Source of the DNA: a virus
Reading direction: 5' to 3' (one strand)
Length of the DNA: 64,000 bases
Virus record (IMG/VR): IMGVR_UViG_3300040801_003693
Coordinates: 32,001-96,000 of that record
The first letter of the stretch is position 1; every line of letters starts with the position of its first letter. The notes under the pieces are model-generated. The model saw only the letters and a list, made by a program, of their open reading frames with translations, had not been told where the DNA came from and searched no databases. This document shows, in pieces, positions 29,761 through 32,800 of this stretch. The translations under genes were made by a program, and so were the position numbers.

Positions 29761-29895
29761 ATTAGCACCGAGTATTCTAACATCTCTTAGTACTTCTTTT
29801 GCATCTTCAAAGTAAAATGATGCAGCATTACTAGTTGCAGTACCTGTAGTAAAAGAAGGTTTAGACTGAACCTTTTCTATTAAGTTACTTGCTAC

Positions 29896-32800
29896 TCAAA
29901 ACTGGTTACGAGAATCTACTACTCTATCTTTTATATAATCTCCCGCAGCTTCATTCCATTTATATACCCAAGTTTTATTATCACTGCTATCAAACTGTAT
30001 TATCTCTCCGGAGGAGGCAAGTATGTTTTTAATAGCACTCCAGCTATCTACTCCTAATGCTTGTTGTAAATCGTCAGTAGATACTGTTGCTCTAAGTTTA
30101 CTGCCCTGATAACCTTTAACTGCACGATCTACAAAACCCTGTCGCATTCCACTGGAACCTCCGAATTCAGGGTTTGCATAATAGTAATCACTGTAAGCAC
30201 CTTCTAACTGCATCAGCATTACAGAAGGACCATAGCGTTGAGAAGAACCTAAGAATCCTCTTACGGCAGAAGCATGAGTATCTATACTTAATAATGTAGC
30301 TCTAAGTAATTCTGCTCCTACACCGTCATAGGTATCTTCTTCTCTAATTCCAAATTCAGTTGCTACTTGTTTTCTGATTGCTTCTAATTCTAAGGATAAC
30401 TCCGCACTTAATACAGGTGCTATCCTATCTGCATATAATGCACCTAAAGAATATTTAGTAAAGTTGAAATTATTTCTATATCCATCTGCTAATCCACCTT
30501 GAATATCTTTAACGTATAATTGTCTTAATTGATCTACAGTTTTAACCGTAGTTGTCTGACCCACGTTAGAAAATCTATTTGTATAAACCCCACTAAAATT
30601 ATCAACAATATCTTGATAACTTTGAGATAAATCTCTTAAAGGTCTAGAACCAATTACGTTTTTAATTCTTTGTGGAATTTGAGATGCTTTCTTTTTTTGG
30701 TCAAAGTAGAATTGCATTACAATTCCATCTTCTCCAGATAAGCTTTCCAACTGTTCTCTATAATCATCTGTTGTTTGTCTAGCAAAGTCGTCTCCTAAAA
30801 AAGCAATAGTTTTAAAATAACTCTCTGCTTCTTCTACTCTTAATATTGCTCCTACGTGAGCATCCTCTATAATTTTTAAAGAGGTAACATCTCCTGTTTT
30901 CTCATGCTTGTGATAAGGAAGCATATTATTTAAACCAAACTTAATACCTTCAAAATAATTTGATGTTTCTCTACTACCACCTCCTTCTGCAACTGCCATA
31001 TAAAGCAATTCACCCGTACCCAAATCTGAAGTAGCTCCAAAAGAAGCGGGAGTATTCATTAATGCAAATTTATTTAACGCTCCTACTCCTTCATATCCCG
31101 CTGTATTAATTACGTTAACAGTATCGTATCTTCTATCGTTAACTCCATATGCAGGTCTTTTTCTTCTTGCTTGCATTTTAGAATAAGTATTTGCCTGCCC
31201 GTATAACAAGAACGATTCAAACTTCTCTGTAGATAAATTCTTAATCGTTTTATTTAAATCTCTATTATATAAATAATCTTTTTGAGCAGAAACAAAATCA
31301 AATCTTACGTCTGCAAATGTATCGTCATCTCTACTCAATAATGTATTTAATCTGCCAATAATAGAATCTTCTGCCGATAAGTTAGCACCACCTAATAATA
31401 ATGCTTTACGAATGTCTACGTTATCCGTAGAAGCATAAGCTTTTATCTTATTAGTAATCTCTAATAATTCTGATAATCTACTTGTGTCCCCCGGCTTGAC
31501 ATTAGTTAAATTACGAATAGTTTGAGAAACATCTCCACTATCTTGTTTGTACTTAGCTTCAAACTGTGCTAATCCTAACAGCACTCTTTCTTTATCTATA
31601 CTAAGTAAACTGTTAATGTCTCCTGTAGAATCAAATATTCTATTTAAGTAATTAACGCTACCTGTAATTAAATTGTCATAGCTTTCCGTATTGACAGTGC
31701 TGTATCGTGTTACAAATTCATTCTTAGGAAATCTTACCAAGTTTAAATTAGCAGATTCAGATGCAACAGAAGCGATTAAAGATAGCGTGCTTTCTATAGG
31801 AGATAATGTTTCTCTTTGTCCTCTTCTAATTAAAACTTTATTTCCATTACGTTCAAAACCAGTAGCTATATCGCTGTTGGACATATTTACAAATTCTGTT
31901 TCACTGATTAATTTAGATTTGTTTATCTCTAATACAAAACCTTCACCTGCTCCAGAACCTGAAGATAAAGTTGTAAATTTATATTTTAATTGACTACCTC
32001 CGCCTTGGGAGTTACCTATGCTATAAGGATCTATTGTTAATGATAATGCTATAGGACCTTTCTCATCATACTCAAATCCTACTCCCATATTTATCTTAGT
32101 CATTTCTTCTAATGACTTAAGACGGTCGTGTAGTTGAACCAATCGTTTGCGGTCTACACTTCCTTGCCATTCCCCTCCCGTTACATCTTGATATTGTAAT
32201 TGTCCTACACGACCGGGAGTTGTATCGGATTCCATAATATGAAAGTTACGCGCAAACTTACCCATCTCTTCAGTTTCTTGATTTGCATTTAATCCATAAC
32301 CCATTCCTCCCGTGGAAGCTTGTTCATTACTTAAATCTCTAAGTTTCTGTCTTCCAAAAAGCATATCCATTTCATAGTTAACTGTTTCTCTCTCAAACAA
32401 GGAGTCTTCCATTGCTAAAGAATAAAGTCCCATGTTAGAACTTCCTTGCTTCCCAGCTAAGTAACCACTATTATCACTAAGTAAAAATCCTTTTACGTGT
32501 TGTCTGGGTACAGATGCTGTTTTGATATTTCCAGACTGCATTGCAAGTAGCTGTAATGCCATCGATTTATCTAATCCATGCCCCTCTAAAACCGAACCCA
32601 ATCTACTAATTTTATCTTCTGTACTTCCGCTACCCGATGCATCTTTTACAAGCTTGGATAAATCAAACCCATTGCTTTCTCCTAACAATCCTACAGTTCT
32701 TAACTTTCCATAAATAGGATCTAATACTTTTTCTTTATAGTTTCTAATATCAACTATTGCTGAAGCCCTTCCTTCTACTACAGCAGTTAAGAACTGATAC

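What the first reader, a model, noticed from the sequence alone, without database searches (positions are those of the whole stretch)
29761..29898. Single in-frame TGA splits the giant gene inside the polymerase beta-like barrel
Seen: the stop at 29896-29898 (CAG TTT TGA GTA GCA on the - strand) is followed by exactly 45 sense codons (VASNLIEKVQSKPSFTTGTATSNAASFYFEDAKEVLRDVRILGAN) in frame with the ATG at 29760, which has no evident RBS. The break falls between the two putative halves of the beta barrel. Inference: programmed readthrough giving short and long forms, a nonsense mutation in a decaying prophage, or a sequencing error. Genome-wide TGA recoding is unlikely because other genes end normally at TGA.
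Basis: partly seen in the sequence, partly recalled or inferred. Interest (0 to 1): 0.7.

Follow-up and report, generated by a model that had tools for sequence, protein, structure and literature searches.

The report
Lone stop codon in giant phage gene
A single stop codon cuts a 3,699-codon gene of an uncultured cyanophage in the middle of a folded, RNA-polymerase-like domain, and because every relative has one unbroken gene there it is most likely an ordinary recent nonsense change (or a base-call error) rather than a special way of reading the gene.

Summary
TGA at 29896-29898 (- strand) splits one 3,699-codon frame (34299..23200) into 1,467 aa, 45 sense codons and an ATG-started 2,186 aa ORF.

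The record is a 136-kb uncultured relative of Microcystis phage Ma-LMM01. The gene is the homologue of Ma-LMM01 gp080 (PHROG 31006).

- All relatives found are unbroken giant ORFs with a sense residue at this column: 19 in an exhaustive search, 9 Ma-LMM01-type phage records and one MAG contig.
- The 45 codons after the stop are better conserved than the gene's average. The ATG column is not conserved.
- Fifteen other ORFs end normally at TGA. No other conserved gene is broken, and no tRNA is encoded.
- An AlphaFold model puts the stop inside a flap/wall-like domain of a module that resembles the RNA polymerase second-largest subunit. A DFDGD motif is invariant downstream.

Verdict: most likely a young, lineage-specific nonsense allele, less likely a base-call error. 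It is not recoding, not a natural split and not a decaying prophage. Programmed readthrough is not excluded but has no positive support. The public data could not settle the read evidence.

The scan has noted similar lone in-frame TGAs in giant genes on other DNA (e1-5620649, e1-5392868, e1-5271313).

The parts
23200..34299 (-). Whole 3,699-codon frame of the giant gene. It is the homologue of Ma-LMM01 gp080 (PHROG 31006) and is interrupted once.
   Evidence: translation with TGA=X; both halves hit phrog_31006, profile positions 174-1408 and 2437-3540 of 3562; 27% identity to Ma-LMM01 gp080 in one alignment over about 3,690 columns.
29896..34299 (-). Upstream ORF of 1,467 aa, ending at the in-frame TGA.
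   Evidence: It is also stored as P0013, the only 'shorter' hit.
29896..29898 (-). The in-frame TGA, codon 1468 (context CAG TTT TGA GTA).
   Evidence: The aligned column in relatives reads P,A,A,A,S,S,A,S,S,S and R.
29761..29895 (-). 45 sense codons between the stop and the next ATG. They encode conserved protein sequence and hold no ATG, GTG or TTG.
   Evidence: Conservation among relatives is 0.624 against 0.534 for the whole protein (86.7th percentile). The window's residue equals the relatives' consensus at 30 of 45 positions, against 41.7% overall. Six columns are invariant.
29758..29760 (-). ATG (M1514), first canonical start after the stop. It is not a conserved start.
   Evidence: the column reads L,V,N,L,P,L,P,V,V,V in relatives; it is model residue 335, just after strand E322-334.
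23200..29760 (-). Downstream ORF of 2,186 aa as called from the ATG. It ends at a TGA.
   Evidence: Stored as P0005.
29401..30711 (-). Module (residues about 1197-1633) whose predicted fold resembles the hybrid-binding (double-psi barrel) plus wall/flap part of RNA polymerase second-largest subunits.
   Evidence: AF2 pLDDT 69.9, pTM 0.68; the top 5 of 48,161 chains are all such subunits, Z 6.6-5.2 with 186-234 residues aligned; 90 of 995 chains reach Z>=5, and all 50 rows shown are such subunits.
29716..30144 (-). Flap/wall-like beta domain (residues about 1386-1528). It contains the stop near its middle.
   Evidence: E. coli beta-flap 3tbi_B, Z 4.9, model 208-349; T. thermophilus beta-flap 3woe_A, Z 4.5, model 207-349; the stop is model residue 289, in the loop between strands 275-282 and 291-297.
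26449..26463 (-). DFDGD motif (residues 2613-2617), a candidate metal-binding DxDxD motif of a beta'-like barrel.
   Evidence: D, D, G and D are invariant in 25 of 25 aligned sequences. The fold of this part was not resolved.
33280..33330 (-). HKD-type motif HPKFLLNERFAVIGTQN (residues 324-340) in the N-terminal part.
   Evidence: (H324, K326 and N340 invariant in 11 of 11). PDB profile hits to PLD-family enzymes are weak, E 1.8-3.3. Pfam PLDc is found in 1 of 11 members.

Best explanation
The TGA is a lineage-specific, single-base nonsense change in a gene that is otherwise one continuous giant ORF. It is most likely a young allele really present in the sampled phage DNA. The gene encodes a protein of about 3,700 aa in Ma-LMM01-type cyanophages. 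Its middle looks like a single-chain two-barrel RNA polymerase: a beta-like barrel with a flap/wall insert, then an invariant DFDGD. In this genome most ribosomes should stop at codon 1468, inside the flap-like domain. That yields a 1,467-aa fragment with an incomplete polymerase-like module. Full-length protein could then arise only from rare near-cognate decoding of UGA, or be supplied in trans by co-infecting intact genomes if it is a virion protein. Neither route was shown here. Shown: the stop, its uniqueness in the record, the unbroken state of all relatives, the conservation of the 45 codons after it, and its position inside a predicted domain. Inferred: that the change is recent, that it is not adaptive, and how such a genome survives.
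For: (1) Relatives are unbroken. Ten full-length proteins of 3514-4300 aa were found. Nineteen of 19 giant relatives (3212-4838 aa) in the exhaustive search of 1.84 billion representatives match internally, and the match starts at query residue 1-30, inside the 45-codon stretch. Nine of 9 Ma-LMM01-type phage records match in one piece across the site. One MAG contig, L003, is continuous. A search among shorter proteins found only the window's own fragment. (2) The stop column is a variable sense position, P/A/S/R, with GCA in L003 and CGC in Ma-LMM01. (3) The 45 codons after the stop are conserved above the gene's average, and the window still matches the consensus at 30 of 45 positions. The M1514 column is not conserved. 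(4) There are 3,698 further codons without a second stop, while the off-frames carry 368 and 475 stops. The break is therefore recent or tolerated. (5) The stop lies in a loop between beta strands of a predicted domain, with 10-residue block pLDDT of 72-93 around it. This is not a domain boundary, so a designed short form or a clean split is unlikely. (6) It is the only such event in the record: 15 other TGA stops behave normally, no other pair of large ORFs is joined through a stop with a long gap before the next start, and of 35 Ma-LMM01 ORFs with hits there are 0 frameshifts and no other internal stop. (7) No stimulatory RNA structure follows the stop (z = 0.44). There is no promoter or terminator on this strand and no tRNA in the 136-kb record. 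(8) One public contig assembled separately (run X1, 158 nt, depth 3.9) covers the codon.
Against: There is no read-level proof. Only one short low-depth Logan contig covers the codon. It differs from the window by one letter whose place was not reported; the letter lies near one of the contig's ends, and the codon is 4-6 letters from one end. That contig probably comes from the sample the window was assembled from, so it is not independent. No near-identical genome was found for comparison: the closest relative is 50% identical in this region, and the flank-NNN-flank pattern found nothing in viral or metagenome contigs (the window's own and very near records may be left out of these scans). 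A knock-out of a gene conserved across the whole family should be selected against, so finding it in an assembly consensus is somewhat surprising. The intact downstream frame fits equally well with a stop that is read through on purpose.
Confidence: 0.55

Rival explanations
1. Base-call or assembly error. The phage DNA carries a sense codon, and the consensus of a low-depth metagenome assembly is wrong at one base.
For: The phage is at low depth in the only public runs that hold it: summed contig word depth is 0-8 in both, and the contigs are 157-488 nt long. The single public contig over the codon has one unplaced mismatch near one of its ends. All relatives have a sense codon. Several sense codons lie one base from TGA (standard genetic code).
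Against: A separately built contig (depth 3.9) covers the codon, and no difference was listed away from its ends. No other sign of a poor assembly was found: 0 frameshifts and no other internal stop among 35 Ma-LMM01 ORFs with hits.
Confidence: 0.18
2. Readthrough maintained by selection. The UGA is kept as an attenuator or switch, so that a 1,467-aa short form is made in bulk and a full-length form in small amounts, as with phage Q-beta coat/A1 (own knowledge) or the in-frame stops under purifying selection described by Belinky et al. 2021 (PMC7918605, abstract read).
For: Both halves and the 45 linking codons are intact and consensus-like. UGA is generally the leakiest stop codon (own knowledge). 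Such a giant protein may be needed in only a few copies (inference).
Against: None of the relatives examined carries a stop here. The stop lies inside a predicted beta domain, not after a complete one, so the short form would end in half a domain. There is no RNA structure after the stop. The next base is G, which as far as I recall is not the leaky UGA-C or UGA-A context.
Confidence: 0.12
3. A working two-piece enzyme. The gene has become two genes, with the second piece starting at ATG 29760, as in the naturally split beta and beta' genes of jumbo phages, cyanobacteria and archaea (PMC7598289, passages read).
For: Split large-subunit genes are well known in two-barrel RNA polymerases. An ATG exists 46 codons downstream with a weak GGTG before it.
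Against: The restart would drop 45 residues that include 6 invariant columns and three predicted strands of the flap-like domain (model 291-334). There is no ATG, GTG or TTG within those 45 codons. The M1514 column is unconserved. No relative is split: one search found only the window's own fragment, and only the window's own protein begins at that Met.
Confidence: 0.08
4. Incipient stop-codon reassignment or suppression. A suppressor tRNA of the host, or one encoded in the missing 22% of the phage genome, reads UGA, and this is the first in-frame UGA to accumulate. Yutin et al. 2021 describe such early stages in crAss-like phages (PMC7886860, passages read).
For: The record is only 78% complete by CheckV, so a tRNA could have been missed. 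Early stages with few recoded codons are described in the literature.
Against: There is one in-frame TGA in 136 kb. Fifteen ORFs terminate at TGA with normal short extensions. Treating TGA as sense changes the ORF set only by this one fusion, 137 to 136 ORFs. No tRNA was found at all.
Confidence: 0.04

Closest known systems
Microcystis phage Ma-LMM01 gp080 (YP_851094.1, 3,562 aa, 'hypothetical protein') and its copies in MaMV-DC, MaMV-DH01, MaMV-CH01/02 and MaMV-DL01/02; PHROG 31006
   Same: Collinear homologue over nearly the full length: 27% identity in one alignment, and both halves hit phrog_31006. The setting is the same, next to the portal, major head and sheath genes and in the opposite orientation.
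   Different: The isolates carry one unbroken ORF; the window has a TGA at codon 1468. The window genome has 32% G+C and comes from a microbial-mat metagenome. It is only distantly related.
Young nonsense alleles and in-frame stops in otherwise intact prokaryotic genes (Belinky et al. 2021, PMC7918605; abstract read)
   Same: A single in-frame stop in a gene whose two halves look fully functional.
   Different: That paper argues for frequent conservation of such stops and for readthrough. Here no conservation could be shown, because no close relative exists in the collections searched.
Giant single-chain two-barrel virion RNA polymerases: crAss-like phage phi14:2 gp66 and the P23-45 tape-measure-fused gp96 (PMC10770324, passages read); crAss-like RNAP genes interrupted by stops (PMC7886860)
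   Same: A giant phage protein with a predicted beta-like barrel/flap module and an invariant DxDxD-type motif, DFDGD, encoded beside the structural genes. In some crAss-like phages the RNAP genes also contain in-frame stops.
   Different: There is no sequence-level match to any RNAP family, and the beta'-like barrel was not resolved. In crAss-like phages the stops are many and reflect recoding of late genes; here there is one and no recoding. Neither virion location nor polymerase activity was tested.
Programmed UGA readthrough of phage Q-beta coat/A1 (own knowledge)
   Same: UGA followed by a long in-frame coding extension with no start of its own.
   Different: In Q-beta the stop ends a complete coat protein and is a fixed feature of the virus. 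Here it cuts a domain and is absent from all relatives.
Naturally split beta/beta' genes of jumbo-phage, cyanobacterial and archaeal RNA polymerases (PMC7598289)
   Same: A break within a large-subunit-like module of a two-barrel polymerase.
   Different: Those splits are conserved and each piece has its own start. Here the break is unique to one genome, and the first start lies 46 codons downstream.

Membership tests
Ma-LMM01 gp080-like giant proteins (PHROG 31006) | Collinear full-length sequence similarity to the family profile | tested here: met
   E 1.7e-135 for the N half (profile 174-1408) and 5e-131 for the C part (profile up to 3540 of 3562); one alignment over about 3,690 columns to gp080.
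Ma-LMM01 gp080-like giant proteins (PHROG 31006) | Encoded as one uninterrupted ORF | tested here: not met
   TGA at codon 1468. All relatives examined are uninterrupted.
Two-barrel (double-psi beta-barrel) RNA polymerases | Beta/Rpb2-like barrel (hybrid-binding region) with wall/flap insert | tested here: inconclusive
   AF2 model with pLDDT 69.9. The top 5 of 48,161 chains are all second-largest RNAP subunits, Z 6.6-5.2. In the second look, 90 of 995 chains reach Z>=5 and all 50 rows shown are such subunits. Foldseek E-values reach only 7e-3. The hits are consistent, but Z is below the level of 8 that the tool calls safe.
Two-barrel (double-psi beta-barrel) RNA polymerases | DxDxD metal-binding motif in the beta'-like barrel | tested here: met
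   DFDGD at residues 2613-2617. D, D, G and D are invariant in 25 of 25 sequences and in 11 of 11.
Two-barrel (double-psi beta-barrel) RNA polymerases | Beta'-like barrel fold around the motif | tested here: inconclusive
   In the model of residues 2480-3060 the motif region has pLDDT below 50, and Foldseek gives no match (best E 0.68). The language-model look-up gave only a lead: a cluster in which 25% of members carry PF05183 RdRP, score 0.88.
Two-barrel (double-psi beta-barrel) RNA polymerases | Match to curated RNAP sequence models | tested here: not met
   No Pfam family at E<=0.1. PF00623 and PF05183 were not found in the record at E<=10. None of the 11 members hits an RNAP family at E<=1. 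The PDB profile search gave no RNAP hit.
Two-barrel (double-psi beta-barrel) RNA polymerases | Template-dependent RNA synthesis | not testable with these tools
   Needs purified protein.
Programmed stop-codon readthrough (Q-beta A1 type) | Stop codon conserved at the site among relatives | tested here: not met
   No stop in 11 of 11 aligned relatives, in 19 of 19 giant relatives, in 9 of 9 phage records or in L003. No relative closer than 50% identity was available.
Programmed stop-codon readthrough (Q-beta A1 type) | Stop follows a complete protein or domain; the extension is an added module | tested here: not met
   The stop is model residue 289, between strands 275-282 and 291-297 of one flap-like domain that spans model 207-349.
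Programmed stop-codon readthrough (Q-beta A1 type) | Readthrough product detectable | not testable with these tools
   Needs proteomics, ribosome profiling or a reporter assay.
Stop-codon reassignment (TGA as sense; codes 4/25, crAss-like late-gene recoding) | Many in-frame TGAs in conserved genes, and TGA not used as a terminator | tested here: not met
   There is one in-frame TGA. Fifteen other ORFs end at TGA and run on for 1-39 codons. The ORF count changes from 137 to 136 when TGA is read as sense. The portal, head and sheath genes are intact under table 11.
Stop-codon reassignment (TGA as sense; codes 4/25, crAss-like late-gene recoding) | Suppressor tRNA | tested here: inconclusive
   ARAGORN finds 0 tRNAs in the window and in the 135,938-base record. 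The record is 78% complete and the host is unknown.
Naturally split polymerase subunit genes | Split shared by relatives, with the downstream piece starting at the break | tested here: not met
   Only the window's own fragments appear as short proteins. There are 45 conserved codons without any ATG, GTG or TTG between the stop and the first start.
Selenocysteine insertion at UGA | Cys (or Sec) at the homologous position in relatives | tested here: not met
   The column reads P,A,A,A,S,S,A,S,S,S,R. The fold after the stop is no better than shuffled sequence (z 0.44). No dedicated SECIS search was run.

The most novel reading that the evidence does not exclude
Ma-LMM01-type (Fukuivirus-like) cyanophages carry a previously unrecognised giant single-chain two-barrel RNA polymerase, fused to an HKD/PLD-like N-terminal domain and probably delivered with the virion. 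In this mat lineage the UGA inside the flap-like domain is a maintained leaky stop, or an early step towards UGA suppression. It would keep the full-length enzyme at a few copies while releasing an N-terminal fragment with a job of its own.
Probability: 0.1. Interest if true: 0.65.

Novelty: new member of a known kind. Interest (0 to 1): 0.3.

Why it matters
For the stop codon itself, little. It warns annotators that the two ORFs of 1,467 and 2,186 aa are one gene, and it is one more case of a lone in-frame stop in a giant gene of an uncultured genome.

The by-product matters more. The largest gene of the Ma-LMM01 group of bloom-controlling cyanophages is annotated as hypothetical. Here its middle folds like the active-site region of RNA polymerase's second-largest subunit, and it carries an invariant DFDGD. 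Published work on Ma-LMM01 transcription attributes all three temporal gene classes to host sigma-70-type promoters (PMC5780444, abstract and passages). If this protein really is a phage RNA polymerase, that view would need a second look.

I found no paper linking gp080 to a polymerase (searches; passages). Subscription journals and supplementary files were not searched.

Tried and rejected
**Searches for near-identical DNA**
- blastn 'distant' of 27000-33000 against phages found no match.
- The search for related loci in viral contigs with the 400-aa junction gave 17 pattern hits, none a relative.
- The pattern of 17 bases, NNN and 17 bases around the stop gave 0 hits in viral contigs and 0 in metagenome contigs.
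- The window's own record and very near ones may be left out of these collections, so this does not show absence.

**Reads**
- Three runs of one microbial-mat sample were listed, and no RNA holder was listed.
- The RNA run X3 laid nothing.
- Parts of the stretch without contig cover are not evidence.

**Local signals and other decoding**
- The RNA fold after the stop has z 0.44.
- There is no promoter or terminator on the - strand.
- A frameshift was considered and dropped, because both halves are in the same frame.
- An intein or intron was dropped, because the alignment is collinear with no insertion at the site.
- Selenocysteine was dropped, because no relative has Cys at the column.

**Function of the protein**
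- Pfam gave nothing for either half. On 11 members it gave only PLDc, in 1 of 11.
- The PDB profile search gave only weak HKD-motif hits, E 1.8-3.3.
- PF00623 and PF05183 were not found in the record.
- The model of residues 2480-3060 was poor around DFDGD and found no PDB match.

**Other**
- The apparent second 'stop in a conserved gene', in the recA/UvsX-like gene, turned out to be that gene's natural end.
- A third flagged hit was a wrong-strand shadow ORF.
- Complex prediction was not used. Halves of one gene tend to pass by likeness, so a result would not separate the hypotheses.
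Full report
**The observation.** On the - strand the window reads AAC CAG TTT TGA GTA GCA AGT, with TGA at 29896-29898. The ORF list gives 29896..34299(-), 1,467 aa, and 23200..29760(-), 2,186 aa. Translating 34299..23200 with TGA shown as X gives one frame of 3,699 codons. It has exactly one internal stop (codon 1468), and its own terminal stop is also TGA. The other two frames of the same stretch hold 368 and 475 stops, so 2,231 open codons after a stop cannot be chance.

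**Where the window comes from.** The window is bases 32001-96000 of a 135,938-base viral record that is linear and 78% complete by CheckV. It has 32.2% G+C and no tRNA gene. The giant gene sits next to the portal (37536-39092), major head (46628-47935) and tail sheath (57595-59832) genes, on the opposite strand to them. The only isolates with similar proteins are Microcystis phage Ma-LMM01 and its kin, 9 records in all. Thirty-five of 163 Ma-LMM01 ORFs of 100 aa or more find a match in the record. The public runs that hold the sequence are from one microbial-mat sample.

**The gene is one gene in every relative.**
- Both halves hit the same 3,562-position profile, phrog_31006, at consecutive positions.
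- Ma-LMM01 gp080 (3,562 aa, 'hypothetical protein') aligns with the joined frame in a single alignment that runs straight through the stop.
- A word-indexed search with residues 1250-1700 found 11 proteins. Ten are full-length relatives of 3,514-4,300 aa (39-50% identical in that region) and one is the window's own C-terminal ORF.
- The same search among shorter proteins found only the window's own N-terminal ORF (only the 8,000 best candidates were scored).
- An exhaustive phmmer search of 1.84 billion representatives, using the 500 residues that follow the stop, found 21 proteins.
  - One is the window's own ORF, matched from its Met.
  - One is a weak 1,150-aa hit of another kind (E 6e-7, 8 short stretches).
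  - Nineteen are giant proteins of 3,212-4,838 aa. In all 19 the match is internal (starting at protein positions 1325-1941) and begins at query residue 1-30, inside the 45 codons that precede the ATG.
- One further relative on a MAG contig (L003) is also continuous.

**The stop column and the 45 codons.** In the alignment of the 10 full-length relatives plus gp080, the stop column reads P,A,A,A,S,S,A,S,S,S,R. The codons are GCA in L003 and CGC in Ma-LMM01. It is therefore an ordinary, variable sense position. There is no Trp, Cys or Gly to suggest a particular recoding. The 45 residues after it are conserved above the gene's average:
- Conservation among relatives is 0.624 against 0.534, the 86.7th percentile of all 45-residue windows.
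- Six columns are invariant.
- The window's own residues equal the relatives' consensus at 30 of 45 positions, against 41.7% for the whole protein.

The Met of the ATG aligns with L,V,N,L,P,L,P,V,V,V. No ATG, GTG or TTG occurs within the 45 codons. A long-standing split with a start at 29760 is thus excluded. These codons are translated, or were until very recently.

**No recoding and no decay.** Of 137 greedy ORFs, 105 end in TAA, 16 in TAG and 16 in TGA. The in-frame run after the stop has a median of 6-8 codons for all three. The only TGA outlier is this gene, with 2,231 codons; the other 15 run on for 1-39 codons. Reading TGA as sense changes the ORF set only by this fusion. Other pairs of open frames joined by one stop are neighbouring genes, small frames, or have the next start within a few codons. 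In the tblastn of Ma-LMM01 ORFs against the record:
- no query hit two frames;
- three hits contained a stop: the giant gene, the recA-like gene (where the stop is simply the natural end of the gene) and a wrong-strand shadow ORF.

The record is otherwise clean, which argues against a decaying prophage and against a generally poor assembly.

**Local signals.** The RNA after the stop folds no better than shuffled sequence (z 0.44). There is no promoter-like or terminator-like site on the - strand within 29400-30400. The ATG has only a 4-base GGTG before it, but SD-like matches are weak throughout this genome and the giant gene's own start has none. The missing RBS therefore carries little weight.

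**What the stop cuts.** AlphaFold2 on residues 1180-1700, with a 25-row alignment, gave pLDDT 69.9 and pTM 0.68. The stop is model residue 289, in a short loop between strands 275-282 and 291-297 of a beta-rich domain whose 10-residue blocks score 72-93. M1514 is model residue 335, just after strand 322-334.

An unbiased structural search of 48,161 representative chains put five RNA polymerase second-largest subunits on top:

| Chain | Enzyme | Z | Residues aligned |
|---|---|---|---|
| 4c2m_B | Pol I | 6.6 | 224 |
| 6rfl_B | vaccinia | 6.1 | 234 |
| 7eu0_B | Pol IV | 5.5 | 214 |
| 5fj8_B | Pol III | 5.3 | 231 |
| 8q3b_B | ASFV | 5.2 | 186 |

All five align the model with the region around residues 560-1080 of those subunits. 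The isolated bacterial beta-flap domains 3tbi_B (Z 4.9) and 3woe_A (Z 4.5) align with model 207-349. Foldseek's list is almost wholly the same subunits, but with E-values only down to 7e-3. The second look gave 90 of 995 chains with Z>=5, and all 50 rows shown are such subunits. The tool warns that Z below 8 can be a common arrangement, so this is consistent but moderate evidence.

Downstream, DFDGD (residues 2613-2617) is invariant in 25 of 25 sequences. Its surroundings could not be modelled (pLDDT below 50; no PDB match). A language-model look-up gave only a lead to eukaryote-type RdRP (score 0.88). No curated RNAP sequence model matches. I therefore say the protein works like, and is probably related to, single-chain two-barrel RNA polymerases such as those fused into giant virion proteins of crAss-like phages and P23-45 (PMC10770324, passages). 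I do not file it as a proven member.

**Read evidence.** The phage is at low depth in the two DNA runs that hold it. Both are kept only as short contigs. Only one, a 158-nt contig of run X1 (29892-30049, depth 3.9), covers the codon. It has one letter unlike the window. The place of that letter was not listed, which means it lies near an end of the contig, and the stop codon is 4-6 letters from one end. This is the main loose end. If the letter is elsewhere, the contig supports the TGA with several reads. If it is in the codon, the site is polymorphic or wrong. The runs probably come from the sample the record was assembled from, so they are not independent. No near-identical sequence was found elsewhere.

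**Weighing the explanations.**
- A natural split (0.08) and recoding (0.04) fail direct tests.
- Programmed readthrough (0.12) has no positive support. The stop is absent from every relative, it cuts a domain rather than following one, and nothing marks the site. It cannot be excluded, because both halves are intact and no close relative is available. In-frame stops that persist under selection are described in bacteria (PMC7918605, abstract), and early stages of code change are described in crAss-like phages (PMC7886860, passages).
- An error (0.18) remains possible at this depth.
- The best reading (0.55) is a young nonsense allele. It would be a genome that either lives on rare UGA misreading or on protein from co-infecting intact phages, or is simply defective.
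- Known precedent for split RNAP subunit genes (PMC7598289, passages) keeps the two-piece idea alive in principle. However, the loss of 45 conserved residues and three strands speaks against it.

**Novelty and score.** The stop itself is an ordinary kind of event, and the scan has met similar lone TGAs in giant genes of other genomes. The more interesting result is incidental. The largest gene of the Ma-LMM01 group, annotated as hypothetical, has a polymerase-like core. My searches and the passages read turned up no paper saying so. Subscription journals and supplements were not covered. Interest 0.3.

Noticed in passing
window 33280-33330 (-), residues 324-340 of the giant protein: An HKD-type motif (HPKFLLNERFAVIGTQN) with H324, K326 and N340 invariant in 11 of 11 relatives. 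A PDB profile search gives only weak hits to PLD-family nucleases (vaccinia nicking-joining enzyme, PLD4; E 1.8-3.3), and Pfam PLDc matches 1 of 11 members. The N-terminal part may be a PLD-like nuclease or phosphodiesterase domain.
   Followed up: partly
window 26200-26460 (-), residues about 2618-2696: Directly after DFDGD the model shows two very long helices (model 139-177 and 181-217; 10-residue blocks from model residue 151 score pLDDT 81-91). This is the only confidently predicted part of that region. Whether it corresponds to a bridge-helix or clamp-type element of polymerases was not tested.
   Followed up: no
window 23200-24100 (-), last ~300 residues of the giant protein: By eye, the C-terminal part contains Gly/Ala-rich hydrophobic stretches (for example around ...AGQALASGEV... 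and ...GVGAIASTILGMMVGQQ...) that look like membrane or pore-forming segments, as in ejection or tape-measure proteins. Not analysed.
   Followed up: no
window 29892-30049 (public contig of run X1): The only public contig over the stop codon differs from the window by one letter at an unreported place near one of its ends. The contig also ends 4 letters beyond the codon. It could mark a polymorphic site.
   Followed up: partly
window 53793-57485 (+): A 1,230-aa ORF between the head module and the tail sheath gene has no PHROG match at E<=1e-5. Neither does the 321-aa ORF just before it (52835-53800).
   Followed up: no
P0002 (closest relative): The closest full-length relative (50% identity in the junction region) sits on a 359,493-base contig from NCBI, and another (P0006) on a 256,071-base contig. 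Members of this protein family therefore also occur in jumbo-sized phage genomes or in host chromosomes.
   Followed up: no
Ma-LMM01 (L004, L006): Ma-LMM01 carries two more very large 'hypothetical' genes, gp064 (5,022 bases) and gp120 (8,697 bases). Neither found a match in the 136-kb record in the tblastn. They may lie in the missing 22% or be absent.
   Followed up: no
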